Source of the DNA: a virus
Strand: one strand, 5' to 3'
DNA: 64,000 nt
Virus genome (UHGV): UHGV-0371537
Of this stretch, positions 3,098 through 62,311 are shown piece after piece (the first letter of the stretch is position 1; the number at the start of each line of letters is the position of its first letter). Both the position numbers and the translations under genes were made by a program. Below the pieces are notes generated by a model, which was given only the letters and a program-made list of their open reading frames with translations, searched no databases and was not told the DNA's origin.

Positions 3098-3376
3098 ATG
3101 AATCGTACTGAATTTGTTGCCCACATTGCTTCGACCCAGAACATCACCAAAGGCGAAGCGGAGAAAGTAGTGGCATCCTTTATCGACGGCGTTAAAACTG
3201 CAGTTGCTGCAGGTGCGTCTGTACAGCTGGTCGGCTTCGGCGCGTTCGAAGTTAAAGCGCAAGAAGCGCGTGAAGGTCGCAACCCTCTGAACGGCCAGAC
3301 CATTCAGATCGCGGCGAAAAACGTTGTGAAATTCAAAGTGGGCGAAGGTCTGAAGAACGCTGCCAACGGCAAGTAA
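3098..3376 (+). CDS. HU/IHF-family DNA-binding protein
   Basis: 92 aa; MNRTEFVAHIA...VQLVGFGAFEV...EGRNPLNGQTIQIAA matches the HU signature (GFGxF, RNPxTG-like arm). Confidence 0.9.
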   Translation: MNRTEFVAHIASTQNITKGEAEKVVASFIDGVKTAVAAGASVQLVGFGAFEVKAQEAREGRNPLNGQTIQIAAKNVVKFKVGEGLKNAANGK

Positions 3377-3427
3377 TTCTATCTGACGCGCGGCCTGGCT
3401 CTGCGACGCAGGGTATGGCAAAAGAGA

Positions 3428-3454
3428 AAGCCGGGGCAAACGCTCCGGCTTTTT
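3428..3454 (+). terminator. rho-independent terminator after HU-like gene
   Basis: 10-bp GC-rich stem, loop aaac, then TTTTT. Confidence 0.7.
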
Positions 3455-3504
3455 CGTTCCTGGGAATCGGTTAAACTAAAGGCGAATCCCATAGGAGGAA
3501 GCAA

Positions 3505-5223
3505 GTGACAGCATTCAATCAATATACCAAGGCGCTTGATGGCGTCGGACCAGTTAGCATAGACCGCATCAAGTCTCTTGCCACTGAGTTCTTCCCATAC
3601 GACACCGCCAACCCCGGCCAGATGGAGTGCATCGTTGAAGCCGTTGATGCCCTTGTGAATAAGAAATTCAAACACGTGATCATCGAGGCTCCAACTGGTG
3701 TGGGCAAATCCCTCATTGGCACGACCATCCATAACGTGCTTCGCCATCTGGTTCTTGAGCGCAACCCATATGGTCAGTTCCGCACGTCTATCACGACGCC
3801 GACCAAAGGGCTACAGGATCAGTATGCGGCGGAGAAAGCCGTGGCGATAGACATCCTGAAGGGTAAGAAAAACTATCGTTGCCATATCAGTCCCGACCTG
3901 TACTACAACGCCATTCAGTGTCGTATGGCATGCCGTGACGGCCACTGTAGTAAGAATCGTTGCCCATATGTTCAGGCTCGTCGTCTTTGGACGGATATCT
4001 CCTCCCTGCGCTGCACCAACGCCGCCATGATGGTGGAGATGTGCACGACGATCTGTATGAAGCCCGAAAACCGCGCCGATATGCTGATCCTTGACGAGTG
4101 CCATAAGATGCCCTCTACGCTCCTAGAGCACACGATCATGGAATACAGTATAAATGCTGTAAGAGGGTTGCTTACAATCCCCGAGGGAGTGCCTATCGTG
4201 GAGACCATCACGGATATCATCAGGCGCACAGAAAACTATGAGCTGGGCAAGCTGTACTCACTAACAGGTGAGATGCATGCGATCTTTGACGACCTGCATG
4301 ACAAGGTTGAAGCCCTCTTAGAAACCCTTGAGGAACTGGTAGAAGACGAGCGCCTGACGGAAGCTCAGGTGATGAAGCTGTCTGACATCATTGACACCCT
4401 TCACAACCTCAGCGACTACTGTGGCATCATGGGTCAGACCAACGCCAGCACCTTCATCGTTCAGGAAAAAGACAAGGGTATGATCCAGTTCAAGCCTGTC
4501 ATCGCATCTGATGTGTCTCAGTTCGGCCTGTTCCGCAAGGGCGATTACCATGTTCACATGTCAGCGACCATCTGCGGGATTGAGTCCTATGCTCGTTCTC
4601 TGGGTATCCGTGAGGGCGAATATCACAAGATTCAAATCGGCAACCCCATCCCGATTGAGAATCGTAAGGTCAACTACATGCCCGTCATGAAGATGTCGGC
4701 CAACATGGGCGACTACGAGATGAAGAAGCTGGCCGAGTACGTGGATGAGATCATTGCATTCCATCCAGGACAGTCTGGCATCATTCACACAGTCAGTTAT
4801 GACCGCGCTCTGGCTCTACAGAAGTTCAGCAAGTACCGGAATATGATTCACGTTCCTCGTACTCGTAAGGCTCTGATGGATATCATGGAGCAGGCGTTCA
4901 GGACGAAGACGCCTTGTGTCATCGCCAGTCCGGCTATGGAAGAGGGGTATGACTTCAAAGGCGATTACAGCCGCTTCCAGATCCTGATCAAGGTTCCATA
5001 CGATTACCTTGGTGACCCGCTTGTGGCTCATGTAAACAGTGTAGACCCTTCGGCATACTTCAGGATGGCGGTACTGCGTATCGTGCAGATGTGCGGGCGC
5101 TCGGTCAGGGGTGTGAATGACTGGGCTGCGACATACATCCTTGATTCTTCATTTGAATCATTAATGATGCGCAACCCAGAGTTCTTCCCCGCATGGTTCA
5201 CCGATGCTGTGTTCGAGGTTTAG
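3505..5223 (+). CDS. SF2 helicase with DinG/XPD-like features (possible Fe-S helicase)
   Basis: GTG start after aggagg; Q-motif PGQM, Walker A EAPTGVGKS, DECH box, cluster of Cys (RCH..QC..AC..HC..RC) between Walker A and B as in XPD/DinG Fe-S domains. Confidence 0.7.
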   Translation: MTAFNQYTKALDGVGPVSIDRIKSLATEFFPYDTANPGQMECIVEAVDALVNKKFKHVIIEAPTGVGKSLIGTTIHNVLRHLVLERNPYGQFRTSITTPTKGLQDQYAAEKAVAIDILKGKKNYRCHISPDLYYNAIQCRMACRDGHCSKNRCPYVQARRLWTDISSLRCTNAAMMVEMCTTICMKPENRADMLILDECHKMPSTLLEHTIMEYSINAVRGLLTIPEGVPIVETITDIIRRTENYELGKLYSLTGEMHAIFDDLHDKVEALLETLEELVEDERLTEAQVMKLSDIIDTLHNLSDYCGIMGQTNASTFIVQEKDKGMIQFKPVIASDVSQFGLFRKGDYHVHMSATICGIESYARSLGIREGEYHKIQIGNPIPIENRKVNYMPVMKMSANMGDYEMKKLAEYVDEIIAFHPGQSGIIHTVSYDRALALQKFSKYRNMIHVPRTRKALMDIMEQAFRTKTPCVIASPAMEEGYDFKGDYSRFQILIKVPYDYLGDPLVAHVNSVDPSAYFRMAVLRIVQMCGRSVRGVNDWAATYILDSSFESLMMRNPEFFPAWFTDAVFEV

Positions 5224-12899: not shown

Positions 12900-12922
12900 T
12901 CTTCAATATCCTTCCCTATACT
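12894..12922 (+). promoter_or_regulatory. early-type promoter TTTACT-N17-TATACT
   Basis: Immediately follows terminator hairpin; identical architecture at 26635-26663. Confidence 0.5.
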
Positions 12923-19181: not shown

Positions 19182-19210
19182 TTTACTCTTCAATAATGAT
19201 GCACTATTAT
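19182..19210 (+). promoter_or_regulatory. early-type promoter TTTACT-N17-TATTAT followed by stem-loop 19222-19238
   Basis: Read directly; TTCAATAA lies in the spacer. Confidence 0.5.
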
Positions 19211-43528: not shown

Positions 43529-43833
43529 ATGGAGGGGGAGGCAACTCCCCCAATAACTACACACTCATCGACCTTGGTCCTGATCAGCTGGCGATCGTCA
43601 AGATCACTTCTGGCAAATTCCGTGGTGTTCAATTCCGGTTCGGCAAGGTTGCCATCAACGAAGTGGACGGTGAACCCCGTTTGTCTTTCGTGACTGATAT
43701 ATTGAAGAAACCATTGCGTCTGATGTTTGTGAATTTGAAAGAAAATGACTTGTTCACTGAGGTGTCAGGGGATATCCTTGTAGACCTTATGCAGCGTAAT
43801 GCTCAGGAATACAATAAATTTTTGGTGGGGTAG
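43529..43833 (+). CDS. hypothetical protein in gene-40 position; start/frame unresolved
   Basis: ATG 43529 two nt after UvsX stop is in a different frame from the long coding frame that ends at 43833; G5 and C5 runs in between. Confidence 0.3.
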
Positions 43834-43838
43834 TGCCA

Positions 43839-45263
43839 ATGTTACTCGAATCTGTCGTGCTTTCACAGTTGATTTACAATGAAGATTACCAAAGAAAGAT
43901 CCTGCCGTATCTGAAAGCCGATTATTTTGACAACGAAGGCGAAAAGGTCATATTTGGCCTGATTGACAGTTATGCCGCAGAGTACAATGCCCGCCCGTCT
44001 ATCGAAGCGCTGTCTATCATTCTTGAACGGACAAAGCTGAACGAATATGTGTTTGACCAGGCAGTATCTGCCCTGGAGAACATCAACGACAACACCTTCA
44101 ATGAAGAGTGGCTGGCGAAGGAAACGGAGACCTGGGCGCGGCAAAAGGCCGTACACAATGCTATCAAGACCGCCGTCAACATCTATGGGGACGAAAAGCG
44201 CAAGGATGAGATGAACAACATCCCGACCTTGTTGCAGGAAGCCCTGGCTATCCGGTTCGATTCATACCTCGGACACATCTATTGGGAGATGGCGGCTGAG
44301 CAGTATGACCATATGAACTCCAACGAGGCCAAGATCCCGTTTGCTGTTGAGATATTCAACAAGGCGACCCGTGGTGGTGTTGGCAAGAAGACCCTGAACA
44401 TCGTGACAGGTGCGATCAACGCAGGTAAGACAACAACTCTGATCGACCTGACTGCAGGATATGCTGAGCAGGGTTTAAACGTCTTTGTATTCACGCTCGA
44501 AGTGGCCGAGAACGTCTGGCGTCATCGCCTTGATGCCCGTATCATGCGCAGAGACTTTGAGTCCTTGGAGAAGCTCCCAAGGCACGAGTACATCGCCACG
44601 ATAGAGAAGCTCCGACACAAACAGGACGGCTCTCCCAAGGGTGATATCGTCATCAAGGAATATCCGTCTGGCGCAGGCCATACAGGTTTGTTCCGCCGCG
44701 ACATCCTTGAGTACATTCAGGCAACCGGGCGCTCCCCAGATGTTATCGTTATCGACTATCTTGGTGAAGCTGCTTCCTCGCGCTTGCCTGCTCACCTGAT
44801 GCAGAACACGAACGTCTATTACACGTCTGTGGCTCGTGAGTTTCGCGCTCTGGGTTTCGAATTTGACGTTCCTGTTTGGACTGGTATGCAGTTCAATCGC
44901 GAGAACCAGAACACAACAGATGGTAGTATCAGTGACCTGGCAGATGCTATCGGTATCCCAAAGGTCGCAGATTTCATCATGGCATTTTATGCTCCTGATG
45001 AATTGGCGGCGGTCAAGAAAGCCCGAGCCTCAATCCTCAAGAACCGTTATGCCAACAAGCAGAAGCTCAAGTCATTCCTGTTTGGTATGGACCAAGACAA
45101 GCAGATCCTGTTTGATCTTGACTGGAACGAAGTGAAGAAGGACCTGACTGAAACCGAGGCGAAGTATGTTGAGAATGTCCATATCAAACATGACCTCAAC
45201 AAGTCCGGGTCCACTGTCAGTGATGAGCAGAAAGCCCAAACAGTTAATAACTGGAAATTCTAA
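43839..45263 (+). CDS. 41: replicative DNA helicase gp41 (DnaB-like)
   Basis: 475 aa; Walker A GAINAGKTT; T4-like order uvsX-40-41. Confidence 0.85.
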   Translation: MLLESVVLSQLIYNEDYQRKILPYLKADYFDNEGEKVIFGLIDSYAAEYNARPSIEALSIILERTKLNEYVFDQAVSALENINDNTFNEEWLAKETETWARQKAVHNAIKTAVNIYGDEKRKDEMNNIPTLLQEALAIRFDSYLGHIYWEMAAEQYDHMNSNEAKIPFAVEIFNKATRGGVGKKTLNIVTGAINAGKTTTLIDLTAGYAEQGLNVFVFTLEVAENVWRHRLDARIMRRDFESLEKLPRHEYIATIEKLRHKQDGSPKGDIVIKEYPSGAGHTGLFRRDILEYIQATGRSPDVIVIDYLGEAASSRLPAHLMQNTNVYYTSVAREFRALGFEFDVPVWTGMQFNRENQNTTDGSISDLADAIGIPKVADFIMAFYAPDELAAVKKARASILKNRYANKQKLKSFLFGMDQDKQILFDLDWNEVKKDLTETEAKYVENVHIKHDLNKSGSTVSDEQKAQTVNNWKF

Positions 45264-45306: not shown

Positions 45307-45328
45307 AATGTTAAACCAGGAGCACATC

Positions 45329-45664
45329 ATGTTACACAATGATTTTATGGCTGGCCTGGTGCAGGCCGCCAAACAGGTGTGCCACACCAAACAAGCGATT
45401 GAGCTGAGTCCGGAGCAGACTCTGGAGTTCTTTGACAATCGTAAAATCTGGGAGGAATATGGCATCGGCATGATCTGCCAAGAGGGTGAACTCGTACAGC
45501 TGGATCTGCCGTCATTCCCCCTTCCAGTGCGCACCAACACAGTGGAATGGTATACGACGGAAGACGGTGTTGAGATCATCCCGAAGTTCCAGTATCACTC
45601 CATCGTAAACTTCTTTTTACGCCGTCGTGGGGCTAATCTGATCCCACAAGGCATGAGATCTTAA
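45329..45664 (+). CDS. hypothetical protein
   Basis: ATG 45329 with aggag RBS (ATG 45308 lies just after a hairpin and lacks an RBS). Confidence 0.45.
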   Translation: MLHNDFMAGLVQAAKQVCHTKQAIELSPEQTLEFFDNRKIWEEYGIGMICQEGELVQLDLPSFPLPVRTNTVEWYTTEDGVEIIPKFQYHSIVNFFLRRRGANLIPQGMRS

Positions 45665-45679
45665 CAAGAGGAACAACAA

Positions 45680-46000
45680 ATGTCTGTAGAACAAATCGGC
45701 TTTTATGCACTACCGTCTGATCCTGAGTCTCGCCGCAAGCTGATGGGCGCGATTGAAAACTGCCGCGCCGCCCAGGTCCGCATCAAATCGGAACAGACCT
45801 TCATTACAGAAACCCTGGCCGAACTGGCGAAAGATACTGGCATCAAAGCCTCCGACCTGCGCAAGGTTGTGTCTGACCGTGCCAATGGCACCTACCAGAA
45901 AACGATCGAAACGAGCGAGAAGTATCAGGATCTTTACGAATCCCTGTTCCCGAACGCCAAGCCTGATCGTGATCCAAACGTTACAACGTCTGACGAATAA
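45680..46000 (+). CDS. hypothetical protein
   Basis: agagga RBS; terminator follows. Confidence 0.45.
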   Translation: MSVEQIGFYALPSDPESRRKLMGAIENCRAAQVRIKSEQTFITETLAELAKDTGIKASDLRKVVSDRANGTYQKTIETSEKYQDLYESLFPNAKPDRDPNVTTSDE

Positions 46001-46017
46001 GTTGACCAAACACCAAG

Positions 46018-46045
46018 AAGCCCAGTCAAGTACTGGGCTTTTTAA
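46018..46045 (+). terminator. rho-independent terminator
   Basis: aagcccagt-caagt-actgggctt then tttaattt. Confidence 0.6.
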
Positions 46046-46055
46046 TTTCAATAAC

Positions 46056-46084
46056 TTTACTTTCAAGAATAAAGCGCCTATTAT
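46056..46084 (+). promoter_or_regulatory. early-type promoter TTTACT-N17-TATTAT
   Basis: Flanked by TTCAATAA (46047-46054) and TATTGAAG (46093-46100). Confidence 0.5.
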
Positions 46085-46115
46085 TTAATCTCTATTGAAG
46101 AGTTGTTACTAAATC

Positions 46116-47321
46116 ATGAGGCTGGAAATGAACGCCAAAACATTCAACATTCCGATCGACAATGAAGGGCTAGTGGTTGAGCGACTGAAAAAGCTCGAGC
46201 GCACTGCTGTCCGTCTGGGTGTACCATTCCCGACTGTGACTTATGGTGAACCCTTCAAGACCCACACCCGTGACTTCACTGGTGAGATCCTCACTCACTG
46301 GTGGAAGCCCGTCACCCTCGAAGGTGAAGGCATTGACCGCCCGGTGTCATACGGTGGTTGGAAAATCATTGGTCAGTTCAATCACGAATACCCAAAGGTC
46401 ATTCTGAACCGACTGTCCGACAATATCAATGCTGACTTCATCCGTCGCTTCGAGACAGAGAATGTCTCTTGGTGCCAGCATTGCAACCTGCTCATCAATC
46501 GCAAGAACACATATGTGATTGAAAACGAGGAAACGCACACTCAGATGCTGATCGGCAGCACCTGCATGCATCATTATGTGCCTCATCAGAAGTCCCTTGA
46601 CGCGATCATGTCTTACTATCTGGGAATCCAGGAGTTCTTCATGCCGGATGAAGATGATCCAGAGGGCATCTATCGCGTTCGTAACGAACAATTCACAGAT
46701 ACCCACAATTACCTGCGTGCGTGCTTCCAGGTGATGCTGTCTGGCGTAGACATCAAGTCTGAACTATTTGACAAAGTCCTGGGCTATGTCCGGTCTTATC
46801 AGAAACCAAAAGCAGGTTCCGATGAAGAGCATTTCGTATACAAGGCACACGAGTACCGTGAAGACGCCGAGTCAGAAATGTACCACATGAAGCTCTTCAT
46901 CAGTGCGCTGTCTGAATCCAATGAATTCAACGTTCGCCTGAAACGCATGTGTGAACCGGGCTACCACCTGATCAAGGACGATAACACAGTCCGCTGGGGT
47001 GCCAAGAAGTATTACGATTACATCCATCGCCCTCGCGCCGACCGCAAGACAGAGAACAAATGGGTGGGCGAAGTCGGGGAGATGCTGGAAGTACAAGTCA
47101 GGTTCGACAAGCGCGTCTTCCTCTTCTCCAATGAATACGGTGACAGCTACCTGTTTACTTTCAAAACAGTAGAAGGCAATACAATTACCTGGAAGACCTC
47201 TTGTATGGATACAGAGTTCTTGCAGGGCGATATGATCATCCGTGGTCGTGTCAAAGAACTGACTGAGTACAACGGTGTTAAACAAACTCAGGTCACCCGA
47301 GCCAAATTGAGGAAATTATGA
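46116..47321 (+). CDS. hypothetical protein with Cys/His cluster and C-terminal OB-fold-like domain
   Basis: WCQHC...STCMHH cluster; C-terminal VGEVGEMLEVQV...ITWKT...GDMIIRGRVKE resembles OB-fold; alternative start 46128. Confidence 0.5.
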   Translation: MRLEMNAKTFNIPIDNEGLVVERLKKLERTAVRLGVPFPTVTYGEPFKTHTRDFTGEILTHWWKPVTLEGEGIDRPVSYGGWKIIGQFNHEYPKVILNRLSDNINADFIRRFETENVSWCQHCNLLINRKNTYVIENEETHTQMLIGSTCMHHYVPHQKSLDAIMSYYLGIQEFFMPDEDDPEGIYRVRNEQFTDTHNYLRACFQVMLSGVDIKSELFDKVLGYVRSYQKPKAGSDEEHFVYKAHEYREDAESEMYHMKLFISALSESNEFNVRLKRMCEPGYHLIKDDNTVRWGAKKYYDYIHRPRADRKTENKWVGEVGEMLEVQVRFDKRVFLFSNEYGDSYLFTFKTVEGNTITWKTSCMDTEFLQGDMIIRGRVKELTEYNGVKQTQVTRAKLRKL

Positions 47322-47431
47322 ATTTGATTGAGTTTGTTCTGAAGTCGTTCGCCTTTGGTCTGATAGCATGCGGAGTGATTACAGCTATGCTTGTCATCAT
47401 AGCTCTGATCATCCCCTTTAAGAGGAAATAG
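47318..47431 (+). CDS. small hydrophobic peptide (37 aa)
   Basis: Unlisted ORF MNLIEFVLKSFAFGLIACGVITAMLVIIALIIPFKRK; ATGA overlap with upstream stop. Confidence 0.3.
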   Translation: MNLIEFVLKSFAFGLIACGVITAMLVIIALIIPFKRK

Positions 47432-47433
47432 AG

Positions 47434-47595
47434 ATGAAACGTGAAATCATGGATGTGTATGATCCAGGGTCTTGTTGTCCCGGTCATGACAAGTATCCAT
47501 CCGATACTTACAAGAATCGACGTTCCAAAGCGCAACGCTCCAAGAGTATTAAGAAGGAGCATCGCCACGCTCGTCGTGTAAGCGTCTGGGGCTGA
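47434..47595 (+). CDS. small basic protein (53 aa)
   Basis: Unlisted ORF MKREIMDVYDPGSCCPGHDKY...; aagagga RBS; Arg/Lys-rich C-terminus. Confidence 0.35.
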   Translation: MKREIMDVYDPGSCCPGHDKYPSDTYKNRRSKAQRSKSIKKEHRHARRVSVWG

Positions 47596-47632
47596 AAGCT
47601 GGCCTGAATACCATTACGTGGGAGGACTTTTG

Positions 47633-47845
47633 ATGGAATGTTCATGCGGAGGGCAGGGCACAAGTGCTTACCTGCCATTTACCACCGTGAAGGAAGCCGA
47701 AGCCGCCGGGTTTGCCGTGGACAAGGCTCCCTGTGTAATCGCCACGAAGGATTGCCCGTGCTGTAAGAGGCACTCTCAGGACGTCTTCTACGCCCCTGAC
47801 GCGCGCCCAGCTACGGTCAACCTGCTTTCACTGATGAGGAAGTGA
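47633..47845 (+). CDS. small Cys-rich protein (70 aa)
   Basis: MECSCGGQG...CVIATKDCPCCKRH; gggagga RBS. Confidence 0.4.
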   Translation: MECSCGGQGTSAYLPFTTVKEAEAAGFAVDKAPCVIATKDCPCCKRHSQDVFYAPDARPATVNLLSLMRK

Positions 47846-47907
47846 AATGCGCAAGTATTTCAACTGGTTGTTGGCAAGATCCCGCAGCCAATAATCTATT
47901 GAAGTCC

Positions 47908-47940
47908 CCAGGGTTATAATAGCAACACATATAACCCTGG
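47908..47940 (+). promoter_or_regulatory. stem-loop with embedded TATAAT that pairs the ligase Shine-Dalgarno
   Basis: 11-bp stem ccagggttata/tataaccctgg; TATAAT 47915-47920; GGAG 47939-47942 half inside the 3' arm; ATG 47950. Confidence 0.45.
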
Positions 47941-47949
47941 AGACATTAC

Positions 47950-49374
47950 ATGATCCCTATCCTTGCAACAGTTCACCGACTTCGAGAAGCCAAAGGCAGC
48001 AATGCGAAGAAATCTGTGTTGACCGAAGCGTTCAAGAATTGTCCAGACATGGCAGACTTCCTGCAATACGTCTATGACCCAATGACGTCGTTCTATCGGA
48101 CCGAGTTGAAGCTCAGCGCGTATCCTCGCATGCTCGTCCGTGAGAAGACTGATGACATCAGCGAAGTCTATGACGTCCTCGATCAGATGGCGCAGCGTCT
48201 TGTCGGTGGTCAAAAGGCTGATGCCCTGCTGGCCTCTGTTGCTCTGAAGATGGACCCACAGTACCACGAACTCATTCAGATGATCCTGGACCGTGATATC
48301 AAGGCGGGTATTGCTGAGAAGGGCATCAACGCTGCATTCAACGCTGCTGGGGGTACAGGTCGCCTGATCAACATTCTTCCGTATCATCGTTATGACAACA
48401 TGACGATTGACCTGCTGAAGAAGATGGACTTCAAGCGCGGTGTCTACAGCCAGCTGAAGTCAGACGGTATGTTCGCCAACATCATCTGTCGGTACAACAA
48501 AGAGCCTGAGATTCGCTCACGCTCCGGTTCCCTTATCGCAGGCGGTTCGGTCGACAATCTGTCACTGGTGTTCAAGGACATCATCTATGATACGGGGATT
48601 GGTGAGAGTGTATTCCATGGTGAACTGCTCGTTGTTGACCTCAAGTCGAATTCTATCCTACCTCGCGCTGTCGGCAACGGTAAACTCAATAGCGTGATTC
48701 AGACTGGCGAACCCCTGGAAGATCGTTATCAGGTGATCTACCGGGTGTGGGATGTCGTACCTTATGAGAAGTGGTTCAACGCCGAGCGCGTGGGCACCCC
48801 GTATGAGCGCCGCTTCGATATCATCCAGCAACTGTTTTACGAAGACGATGGTCTGGTGCAGGTGCAGGAAACTCGTGTTGTTCACTCATTTGCCGAAGCC
48901 GTCGACCACTTCAAAGACGCGCTGGCTCGTAAAGAAGAAGGCACGATCTGTAAGGCTGCTGACATGCCGTGGGAAGACGGGACTTCCTCGGAAGGTCTGA
49001 AGCTGAAGATGGAAGTGGAGTGCGACCTTGAAATTGTTGGTTTCAACGAGGCCGACAAGAAAGGCAAACACGCCAAGACCTTTGGCTCACTGCTTTGTAA
49101 GACTTCCGATGGCTTGCTTGTTGTTGGCGTCTCAGGGATCTCAGATGAGCTGAGACTCCGTATGTGGGAGAACCAAGGCGACTACATTGGCAAGATCGCC
49201 GCAGTGCTCTCCAATGGCGTGCAGGATAAGACAGACGATGCACTGAAGTCGCTGTTCCTGCCTCGCCTTGCTGAAATTCGTATTGACAAGAAAGTGGCCA
49301 ACACGCTGGATGAAGTCTATGCGATTCAGAAAGCATACATCGAAAACATCGTATTCCTGTTGGAGTCTGCATAA
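47950..49374 (+). CDS. 30: ATP-dependent DNA ligase (gp30-like)
   Basis: 474 aa; adenylation motif I YSQLKSDGMF (KxDG); size as T4 ligase. Confidence 0.85.
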   Translation: MIPILATVHRLREAKGSNAKKSVLTEAFKNCPDMADFLQYVYDPMTSFYRTELKLSAYPRMLVREKTDDISEVYDVLDQMAQRLVGGQKADALLASVALKMDPQYHELIQMILDRDIKAGIAEKGINAAFNAAGGTGRLINILPYHRYDNMTIDLLKKMDFKRGVYSQLKSDGMFANIICRYNKEPEIRSRSGSLIAGGSVDNLSLVFKDIIYDTGIGESVFHGELLVVDLKSNSILPRAVGNGKLNSVIQTGEPLEDRYQVIYRVWDVVPYEKWFNAERVGTPYERRFDIIQQLFYEDDGLVQVQETRVVHSFAEAVDHFKDALARKEEGTICKAADMPWEDGTSSEGLKLKMEVECDLEIVGFNEADKKGKHAKTFGSLLCKTSDGLLVVGVSGISDELRLRMWENQGDYIGKIAAVLSNGVQDKTDDALKSLFLPRLAEIRIDKKVANTLDEVYAIQKAYIENIVFLLESA

Positions 49375-58174: not shown

Positions 58175-58244
58175 TTCCGGTTCCTCTTAATAAACTAAGG
58201 GGAAGTATATACTCCCCCTTCTTCAATAACCGCTGAATCTTTAT

Positions 58245-61877: not shown

Positions 61878-61927
61878 TTGTTGTTACCAAACAAGGGGTC
61901 GAGGCGGTAATAATACCGCCTTTTTCT

Positions 61928-62311
61928 TCAATAGAGGTCTTCGGAAAAGAGTTCACGGAAAGGATTGGTTTTGAGGCGGACCTGGTTGATCTGTCCGGCT
62001 TCACGGGCTACGACGCAAGCCTCTTCACGAGTGAGGAAGTTCCCCTGATTGTCGATGAAGCCCTGCTCACGAGTATGAGTAGATTTAATGACGCCAGCCT
62101 CCTTCAGAATCTTGAGCTGGCTGTTCATGAATCGGCTATGGTGTCGGTCAGCAACAACGATTACATCACCATATTTGTTTGCAGCAGCGACCACACGGCG
62201 CTCCCAAGCCCCTTCCGCAGGGAGGTCACGGGTGTACAGGGGAATCACAGTATCACCGATGGAGTCGCCATTCACCTGGGAGAATAATTTACCATCAGTG
62301 CCTGTTGGCAT
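61928..62311 (-). CDS. hypothetical protein
   Basis: ORF track. Confidence 0.45.
   Translation of the reverse strand: MPTGTDGKLFSQVNGDSIGDTVIPLYTRDLPAEGAWERRVVAAANKYGDVIVVADRHHSRFMNSQLKILKEAGVIKSTHTREQGFIDNQGNFLTREEACVVAREAGQINQVRLKTNPFRELFSEDLY

What the first reader, a model, noticed from the sequence alone, without database searches (positions are those of the whole stretch)
46116..47845. Orphan Cys/His plus OB-fold protein with three downstream mini-proteins
A 401-aa protein with a Cys/His cluster (WCQHC...STCMHH) and an OB-fold-like C-terminus is followed, translationally coupled, by a 37-aa hydrophobic peptide (47318-47431), a 53-aa basic protein with CC..H (47434-47595) and a 70-aa Cys-rich protein (47633-47845). 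The group sits between an early promoter cassette and the ligase hairpin and matches no T4 gene I recognise. Two of the three small ORFs are below the ORF-track size cut-off.
Basis: seen in the sequence. Interest (0 to 1): 0.4.

Follow-up and report, generated by a model that had tools for sequence, protein, structure and literature searches.

The report
Conserved phage genes, not an orphan module
The four reading frames are real, conserved genes of a ViI-like (Ackermannviridae) phage: a zinc-binding protein with an OB fold from a very large uncharacterised phage family, its coupled membrane mini-peptide, a frameshifted optional gene, and a small zinc protein that belongs with the neighbouring DNA ligase.

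Summary
All four ORFs exist and evolve under purifying selection (dN/dS 0.02-0.21). The interpretation needs correcting.

- **Host genome.** The window is an Ackermannviridae phage, not a T4 relative.
- **Large protein.** It starts at 46128 (397 aa, not 401). It is not an orphan: it is a full-length member of phrog_2319, and a profile finds 7,171 cluster representatives.
- **37-aa membrane peptide.** It is coupled to the large gene in all six Ackermannviridae genera sampled.
- **53-aa ORF.** It is a 1-nt-deletion copy of an optional 66-aa gene.
- **70-aa CxC...CxxC protein.** It tracks the DNA ligase. It is fused to the ligase N-terminus in five Serratia phages and sits directly upstream of it in Erwinia phage Bue1.

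The run is syntenic, not one module. Functions remain inferred: probably single-stranded nucleic-acid binding, and a detached ligase zinc domain.

The parts
46015..46043 (+). Intrinsic-terminator-like hairpin followed by a T-run, ending the upstream DsbA-like regulator gene
   Evidence: RNA fold dG -16.8 kcal/mol, z -5.35. The stem is kept by compensatory changes across genera (GCCCAGT/ACTGGGC versus GCCCAA/TTGGGC). The consensus scan also found it.
46056..46084 (+). Sigma70-like promoter TTTACT-N17-TATTAT for the large gene
   Evidence: Consensus scan gives 9/12. Both hexamer regions are conserved in 7 phages of 4 genera. Function is inferred, not shown.
46092..46100 (+). CTATTGAAG element between the promoter and the start codon; the same element precedes the ligase at 47896-47904
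   Evidence: Invariant TATTGAA in the A4 alignment. The motif is enriched in the window, 34 matches against 13 +/- 3.5 expected.
46128..47321 (+). Sub-part coordinates here are window nucleotides and residues use the 401-aa numbering. N-terminal alpha/beta domain: 46137-46460. C-x-H-C...C-x-H metal site with conserved Arg129: 46467-46574. Helical domain: 46596-47027. Basic linker. OB fold: 47079-47315.
47318..47431 (+). 37-aa single-pass membrane peptide with a basic C-terminal tail (KRK), translationally coupled to the large gene by an ATGA overlap
   Evidence: phrog_6569 E 6.2e-27. Present in all 8 relatives, including unannotated copies in CBA120 and IME250. dN/dS 0.08-0.21. A hydrophobic mini-ORF follows the large gene in all 6 Ackermannviridae genera sampled.
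47434..47633 (+). Optional basic gene (phrog_5428, 66 aa in relatives). Here it is frameshifted by a 1-nt deletion between 47579 and 47580, so the ORF as it stands ends at 47595 (53 aa).
   Evidence: The alignment shows the single-base gap, and the whole 201-nt gene is cleanly absent in P46FS4, CECAV_050 and XF4. Restoring the base gives 66 aa ending ...ITWEDF*. dN/dS of codons 1-49 is 0.02. Present in 3 of 8 relatives.
47633..47845 (+). 70-aa zinc-ribbon-like protein (invariant C3, C5, C41, C44). It is a ligase-associated module, fused to the ligase N-terminus in Miltonvirus.
   Evidence: phrog_4789 E 1e-44, plus a weak match to positions 1-67 of the ligase family phrog_114. Found in 279 records, all with Ackermannviridae-typical hosts. 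Invariant Cys. Continuous fusion ORF in phage 3M and in 4 further Serratia phages. Directly upstream of the ligase in Bue1. dN/dS 0.03-0.20.
47904..47944 (+). Conserved hairpin without a U-tract. Its 5' arm holds a conserved GGGTTATAATAGC (-10-like) and it ends 5 nt before the ligase ATG.
   Evidence: dG -20.4 kcal/mol, z -5.97. Conserved in 6 of 7 relatives. Exact copies in L001-L003.
47950..49374 (+). ATP-dependent DNA ligase (T4 gp30-like), complete on its own
   Evidence: Pfam DNA_ligase_A_M E 6e-14. Aligns over residues 9-441 with solved 430-440-aa ATP-dependent ligases and over 239-458 with T4 ligase 6DT1.

Best explanation
This stretch is a syntenic run of independent, conserved early-region genes of an Ackermannviridae phage. 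It is not one functional module.

(1) The 397-aa protein belongs to a very large, uncharacterised phage family (phrog_2319). It is most likely a non-enzymatic binder of single-stranded nucleic acid. Binding would use an RPA/SSB-type OB fold at the C-terminus, carrying conserved Trp, Lys, Gln, Thr and Arg. A second surface would be a zinc-ribbon-like C-x-H-C...C site flanked by conserved arginines. These sit on an N-terminal alpha/beta plus helical scaffold that has no known structural relative. The gene is probably transcribed from its own sigma70-like promoter, and in this phage family it lies within the replication/recombination cluster (UvsX, DnaB-like helicase, ligase).

(2) A 30-46-aa single-pass membrane peptide (a longer 105-aa protein in Bue1) is translated by coupling from the end of that gene throughout the Ackermannviridae. 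Its role is unknown.

(3) The basic 66-aa gene is an optional insertion, inactivated or truncated here by a 1-nt deletion.

(4) The 70-aa CxC...CxxC protein is a detached zinc-binding accessory domain of the DNA ligase, made as a separate polypeptide in most genera and as an N-terminal ligase domain in Miltonvirus.

Shown: gene reality, conservation, family size, predicted folds, the frameshift and the fusion. Inferred: metal binding, nucleic-acid binding, promoter use, and any interaction between the 70-aa protein and the ligase.
For: Genome identity and synteny.

Family membership and size:
- phrog_2319 E 3.6e-155 over positions 1-398/399.
- 7,171 representatives at E<=1e-3 and 3,051 at E<=1e-10; most of the best 150 match over the full length.
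- Distant members hit phrog_2319 at 1e-69 to 1e-84.
- 447 phage records, including Schizotequatrovirus, other Straboviridae, Ruegeria and Streptomyces phages.

OB fold:
- Superfamily-conserved W359, K380, Q390, T391, R395.
- One family member carries a second OB-matching stretch.

Metal site: C120, C123 and C150 are 100% conserved, H122 96%, R129 98% and G147 99% across 163 sequences.

No enzyme signature and no Pfam, NCBIfam or PDB sequence match.

Coding and selection: dN/dS values.

Peptide coupling in six genera.

Frameshift.

70-aa protein and ligase: fusion in five Serratia phages, adjacency in Bue1, and invariant four Cys. The ligase is complete without it.
Against: - No biochemical or expression data exist for any member. 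Three literature searches on this phage family and on phrog_2319 found nothing relevant.
- Gene neighbourhoods of distant family members are not conserved. They often consist of small unknown early genes, in one case next to an integrase. This weakens a specific replication or recombination role and is equally compatible with a host-takeover or anti-defence role.
- In the full-length model the domain arrangement is uncertain (pTM 0.42).
- The fourth metal ligand is ambiguous. H122 is D or E in some clade members, while H152 is invariant only within the clade.
- The fusion shows linkage between the 70-aa protein and the ligase but does not prove they interact when separate.
Confidence: 0.55

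Rival explanations
1. The 397-aa protein is a RecT-like single-strand annealing protein (recombinase), as annotated for its homologue in Salmonella phage vB_CECAV_050.
For: GenBank record PQ306799 labels the 94%-identical homologue 'RecT-like ssDNA annealing protein'. The gene lies near UvsX and the replicative helicase. An OB fold could support annealing, as in T7 gp2.5 (background knowledge).
Confidence: 0.05
2. The 397-aa protein is a zinc-dependent His-Me/HNH-type nuclease that uses the Cys/His region as its active site and the OB fold for substrate binding.
For: Weak PADLOC match of residues 108-165 to the Septu HNH nuclease PtuB (E 0.024). H122 is 96% conserved next to a CxxC knuckle, with beta-beta-alpha secondary structure around residues 131-153.
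Confidence: 0.08
3. The 397-aa protein is an early host-takeover or anti-defence factor. It could, for example, sequester a nucleic-acid signal or substrate of a bacterial immune system, rather than acting as a replication or recombination accessory.
For: It has its own early-type promoter. In Straboviridae and in metagenomic or temperate phages it sits in variable regions full of small unknown genes. The family has a very broad but patchy distribution. It is absent from Tequatrovirus-type phages although they have the same replisome.
Against: There is no similarity to any PADLOC model beyond chance. No characterised anti-defence protein was recovered by any sequence or fold search here. Within the Ackermannviridae it is a fixed, strongly constrained gene embedded in the replication cluster. 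That pattern is unusual for accessory counter-defence genes, which tend to be variable (background knowledge).
Confidence: 0.2
4. The four ORFs form one co-functioning module, such as a membrane-anchored nucleic-acid-handling complex.
For: They share strand and order, with tight or overlapping junctions and no terminator between them in the window. Synteny of the large gene, the membrane peptide and the 70-aa gene holds in most genera.
Against: The 66-aa gene is absent in 5 of 8 relatives and frameshifted here. In Bue1 and 3M the 70-aa unit lies 2.1-2.7 kb from the large gene but is adjacent to or fused with the ligase. Distant family members have no such neighbours.
Confidence: 0.1

Closest known systems
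PHROG family phrog_2319 (unknown function), e.g. CBA120 orf061, Vi01, LIMEstone1 and KVP40-like homologues
   Same: End-to-end HMM match (E 3.6e-155). Same length, same C-x-H-C...C motif and same C-terminal OB domain. Homologues 60-96% identical occupy the same genomic position in the Ackermannviridae.
   Different: Nothing essential differs; the window protein is an ordinary member. The family itself has no assigned function or solved structure.
RPA / bacterial SSB / PriB-type OB-fold nucleic-acid-binding domains
   Different: Sequence identity is only 6-17% and there are no Pfam SSB or tRNA_anti hits. There is a single OB domain, preceded by 310 residues of unrelated, apparently novel architecture. 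Oligomeric state and ligand are unknown.
T4 gp32 single-stranded DNA-binding protein
   Same: A phage early protein that combines an OB fold with a Cys3-His-type zinc site (background knowledge of gp32).
Zinc-finger modules of DNA ligases (the N-terminal PARP-like finger of eukaryotic ligase III; the Cys4 finger of NAD-dependent LigA)
   Same: A small Cys4 zinc module attached to a DNA ligase. In Miltonvirus the cys70 homologue is the ligase N-terminal domain.
   Different: No sequence similarity was detected (no Pfam hit at E<=1; PDB profile search gave only chance hits). Here the module is a separate polypeptide.
Small single-pass membrane peptides of large lytic phages (generic class)
   Same: 30-46 aa, one hydrophobic helix, a basic C-terminal tail, and translation by coupling to the upstream gene.
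   Different: No homology outside phrog_6569 and no known function.

Membership tests
phrog_2319 (uncharacterised phage protein family) | Full-length match to the family HMM | tested here: met
   E 3.6e-155, 518 bits, residues 5-400 against profile positions 1-398/399. Distant members found with the window-clade profile hit the same PHROG.
OB-fold nucleic-acid-binding domain (RPA/SSB-like) | Five-stranded closed beta-barrel superposable on known OB domains | tested here: met
OB-fold nucleic-acid-binding domain (RPA/SSB-like) | Actual binding of ssDNA or RNA | not testable with these tools
   Only conserved W359, K380, Q390, T391 and R395 are suggestive.
RecT/Redbeta (Rad52-like) single-strand annealing proteins | Sequence match to the RecT family, or a Rad52-like beta-beta-beta-alpha fold | tested here: not met
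HNH / His-Me finger nucleases | Conserved catalytic His, structural Asn and metal-binding His/Asn on a beta-beta-alpha element, usually with two CxxC-type knuckles | tested here: not met
Zinc ribbon / treble-clef-like metal site in the large protein | Four conserved metal ligands on a knuckle plus the start of a helix | tested here: inconclusive
   C120, C123 and C150 are invariant in 163 sequences. The fourth ligand could be H122, H152 or D153 depending on clade. Metal content is not testable here.
Ligase-associated zinc module (phrog_4789, the 70-aa protein) | Four invariant Cys (CxC...CxxC) and physical linkage to the DNA ligase gene | tested here: met
   C3, C5, C41 and C44 are invariant in 15 sequences spanning 34-96% identity. 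It is always upstream of the ligase on the same strand wherever the ligase lies within the fetched locus. It is fused in frame in 5 Serratia phages.
PARP-like / ligase III zinc finger | Sequence match to zf-PARP | tested here: not met
   No Pfam family at E<=1 for the 70-aa protein.
Single-pass membrane peptide (phrog_6569) | One hydrophobic segment of about 20 residues, conserved as a coding sequence | tested here: met
   Maximum Kyte-Doolittle 17-residue mean of 3.0 in the close homologues from CBA120 and XF4 (86-97% identical) and 2.5-2.6 in the Taipeivirus and Miltonvirus peptides. phrog_6569 E 6.2e-27. dN/dS 0.08 against CBA120.

The most novel reading that the evidence does not exclude
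phrog_2319 would be a previously unrecognised class of phage nucleic-acid-binding protein. Its ~310-residue N-terminal architecture (alpha/beta domain, C-x-H-C...C zinc site, helical domain) would have no structural relative, joined to an OB fold. It would carry out a widespread and still unknown early function, such as a new kind of recombination mediator or a counter-defence factor. Independently, most Ackermannviridae ligases would be 'split' enzymes that use the 70-aa zinc protein as a trans-acting nick- or DNA-sensing subunit.
Probability: 0.25. Interest if true: 0.6.

Novelty: new member of a known kind. Interest (0 to 1): 0.33.

Why it matters
In this window the genes are ordinary. Each has homologues at 90-100% protein identity already deposited as hypothetical proteins, and each falls into an existing PHROG.

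Two points go beyond the window. First, the large protein belongs to one of the bigger phage protein families still without a function, a Pfam entry or a structure (over 7,000 clusters at 50% identity). Most of its chain models confidently yet matches no known fold, so it is a good target for structural and biochemical work. Second, the fusion in Serratia phages gives a testable function for a small Cys-rich protein found in 279 phage records, all from Ackermannviridae-typical hosts: an accessory zinc domain of the DNA ligase.

The analysis also corrects annotations. These are the start codon, a frameshifted gene, unannotated or wrong-strand mini-ORFs in CBA120 and IME250, and an unsupported 'RecT-like' label.

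Tried and rejected
- Sequence searches for the large protein gave nothing significant: Pfam, NCBIfam, PADLOC, and PDB searches with the single sequence and a 60-sequence profile.
- The RecT-like and HNH readings were rejected (see the rival explanations).
- Gene-neighbourhood inference failed. Contexts in Vibrio phi-ST2, Cronobacter S13, Streptomyces Zuko, Ruegeria RpAliso and two metagenomic contig sets share no conserved partner.
- Searching for fused domains failed. Longer members (P0150, P0032 and others) have no Pfam domains in their extra parts, and the third word-indexed homology search added no names.
- Literature searches for expression data or function found nothing relevant. The CBA120 genome paper only states that early promoters could not be identified.
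- Rfam found only chance hits on the terminator hairpin.
- The weak phrog_114 match of the 70-aa protein looked at first like annotation noise, but the Miltonvirus fusion explains it.
- The profile of the 70-aa family against PDB gave only chance CxxC matches, such as PerR at E 0.048.

Full report
**What the window is.** The region is about 90-94% identical in DNA to Agtrevirus and Kuttervirus phages of the family Ackermannviridae (ViI-like). Matches extend at lower identity to Limestonevirus, Taipeivirus and others, 272 records in all. The local + strand gene order is as follows:
- UvsX-like recombinase
- DnaB-like helicase, 43833-45263
- small hypothetical gene, 45308-45664 (phrog_3733)
- DsbA-like transcriptional regulator, 45680-46000 (phrog_639)
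- the four ORFs of the finding
- ATP-dependent DNA ligase, 47950-49374

**Checking the observation.** All four ORFs are present. The junctions are as described:
- The stop of the large gene overlaps the start of the 37-aa ORF (ATGA, 47318-47321), with an invariant GAGGAAA upstream.
- The 53-aa ORF starts 2 nt after the 37-aa stop.
- The 70-aa ORF starts at ATG 47633 behind a GGAGG.

Each ORF matches a PHROG family end to end (E 3.6e-155, 6.2e-27, 4.4e-30 and 1e-44). Pairwise Nei-Gojobori estimates against relatives give dN/dS of 0.06-0.21 (large gene), 0.08-0.21 (37 aa), 0.02 (first 49 codons of the 53-aa ORF) and 0.03-0.20 (70 aa). The ligase gives 0.05-0.07.

Two corrections are needed. First, homologues begin at the second ATG. 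The first ATG (46116) is part of a conserved ATGAGG Shine-Dalgarno region and is out of frame with the gene in XF4 and CBA120. The start is therefore 46128 and the protein has 397 residues. Second, the 53-aa ORF is a damaged copy of a 66-aa gene. Relative to fGh-Ecl02, FEC14 and CBA120, one base is missing between 47579 and 47580. Restoring it yields a 66-aa product ending ...ITWEDF*, like the relatives, and recreates the TGATG overlap with the next gene. That gene is also optional. It is cleanly absent, ATG to ATG, from P46FS4, vB_CECAV_050 and XF4, and it was not found in the two Taipeivirus phages.

**Flanking signals.** Downstream of the regulator gene there is a strong hairpin with a T-run (46015-46043; dG -16.8 kcal/mol, z -5.35). 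Its stem is maintained by compensatory changes across genera. A TTTACT-N17-TATTAT promoter-like site follows at 46056-46084, conserved in seven phages. Before the ligase lies a conserved hairpin (47904-47944; dG -20.4, z -5.97). It has no U-tract and its 5' arm contains a conserved GGGTTATAATAGC. I read it as a regulatory or promoter-associated element, not a terminator, so read-through from the upstream genes into the ligase is likely. No Rfam family matches significantly.

**The large protein is not an orphan.** A first search found only clade members. An exhaustive profile search, however, found 7,171 cluster representatives at E<=1e-3 and 3,051 at E<=1e-10. Most of the best 150 are 370-420 residues long and match over the full length, and all those tested fall in phrog_2319. 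A tblastn with one distant member finds 447 phage records: Ackermannviridae, KVP40-like Schizotequatrovirus, other Straboviridae of Aeromonas and Cronobacter, and Ruegeria, Streptomyces and Cellulophaga phages. Every listed full-length match is annotated as hypothetical. The 'Escherichia' hits number only 29, the same as the E. coli phage count in the Ackermannviridae-wide DNA search, so T4-type phages evidently lack the family. No Pfam, NCBIfam or PDB sequence match exists, even with a 60-sequence profile.

Across 163 family sequences the strictly conserved positions are C120, C123 and C150 (100%), H122 (96%), R129 (98%) and G147 (99%). The motif reads C-[ED]-H-C-N-x-x-R-x-R...Q-V-G-S-S-C-L-[KR]-D-F. 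In the OB domain W359, K380, Q390, T391 and R395 are conserved. The pattern is a metal site plus arginines plus an aromatic/basic OB surface, with no conserved acidic or His catalytic set. This points to a nucleic-acid-binding protein and not an enzyme.

The single GenBank label 'RecT-like ssDNA annealing protein' has no support from any sequence or fold comparison. A marginal PADLOC match to the HNH nuclease PtuB (E 0.024) is not backed by the conservation pattern.

**Context gives no sharper function.** Outside the Ackermannviridae the gene sits in unrelated neighbourhoods. It lies between head genes and accessory genes in Straboviridae, among small unknown early genes in Ruegeria and Streptomyces phages, and next to an integrase on a metagenomic contig. 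A role in replication or recombination is therefore only one possibility. An early host-takeover or counter-defence role is a serious rival.

**The membrane mini-peptide.** The gene that overlaps or immediately follows the stop of the large gene encodes a short protein with one hydrophobic segment. This holds in Agtrevirus, Limestonevirus, Kuttervirus, Taipeivirus, Miltonvirus and Nezavisimistyvirus (30-46 aa, or 105 aa in Bue1). In five of the six genera the peptide ends in a basic tail. Distant family members have no such partner. The copy is unannotated in CBA120. In IME250 an opposite-strand ORF was annotated in its place.

**The 70-aa Cys protein belongs with the ligase.** It occurs in 279 records, all from phages with Ackermannviridae-typical hosts. 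C3, C5, C41 and C44 are invariant (CxC...CxxC). It always lies upstream of the ligase on the same strand, separated by 0 to more than 2 kb of variable genes, including homing endonucleases. In Erwinia phage Bue1 it is 40 nt from the ligase but 2.7 kb from the large gene. In Serratia phage 3M it forms the N-terminus of a continuous 565-aa ligase ORF. The same uninterrupted junction is found in 2050H1, KNP4, phiMAM1 and the more divergent phage Kevin. This explains the weak match of the 70-aa protein to the first 67 positions of the ligase family phrog_114. The window ligase is complete without it. The simplest reading is an accessory zinc domain that is encoded separately in most genera. Whether it binds the ligase in trans is untested.

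**Verdict.** These are ordinary, conserved Ackermannviridae genes. One is frameshifted, one is functionally tied to the ligase, and only the membrane peptide is tied to the large gene. Two aspects have wider interest: the size and structural novelty of the uncharacterised phrog_2319 family, and the split-versus-fused ligase zinc module.

Noticed in passing
window 46092-46100, 47896-47904, 61926-61934 (-), 58221-58228 (-), 12901-12908 (-), 19188-19195 (-): The element (C)TATTGAAG is enriched in the window (34 matches with at most 1 mismatch, against 13 +/- 3.5 in shuffles). In several intergenic regions it is followed by a hairpin and then a start codon. It may mark transcript 5' ends or a phage-specific promoter or leader element. 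The CBA120 genome paper says early promoters of this phage family could not be identified (PMC3184105).
   Followed up: partly
window 47904-47944; L001 5209-5241; L002 4410-4442; L003 6843-6875: The hairpin directly before the ligase start is conserved across genera and embeds a -10-like GGGTTATAATAGC. It has no U-tract, so it is not a typical terminator.
   Followed up: partly
L004 (CBA120) 2493-2606; L007 (IME250) 3191-3331 and 3331-3540: The conserved membrane mini-ORF is unannotated in CBA120. In IME250 an opposite-strand CDS (3161-3343) is annotated in its place, and the conserved 70-aa Cys gene is not annotated at all.
   Followed up: yes
L005 (Dickeya phage XF4) 784-1386; L001 7383-7801; L013 8814-9515: Homing-endonuclease genes are inserted at different points of this cluster in different phages, for example F-LimIV between the regulator and the large gene in XF4. 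The stretch between the 70-aa gene and the ligase is an insertion hot spot holding 0 to more than 2 kb of variable genes.
   Followed up: partly
L001 3020-4213 (PQ306799, cecavS50_042): The 'RecT-like ssDNA annealing protein' annotation of the large protein's homologue is not supported by any sequence or structure comparison made here.
   Followed up: yes
proteins P0032 (486 aa) and P0150 (664 aa): Some family members carry extras: a second OB-matching stretch in P0032, and an unannotated 270-residue N-terminal extension in P0150. These could help assign function.
   Followed up: partly
window 45680-46000 and 45308-45664: Upstream neighbours are a DsbA-like phage transcriptional regulator (phrog_639, E 2.9e-31; weak Pfam Phage_DsbA match) and a conserved 118-aa protein of unknown function (phrog_3733). 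Both are syntenic across the family.
   Followed up: no
L010 (Cronobacter phage S13) 4995-6634; L009 (Vibrio phage phi-ST2) 4944-8210: In Straboviridae the phrog_2319 gene sits in the variable region near the head genes, next to a DprA-like gene (S13) or near a tRNA nucleotidyltransferase gene (phi-ST2).
   Followed up: no
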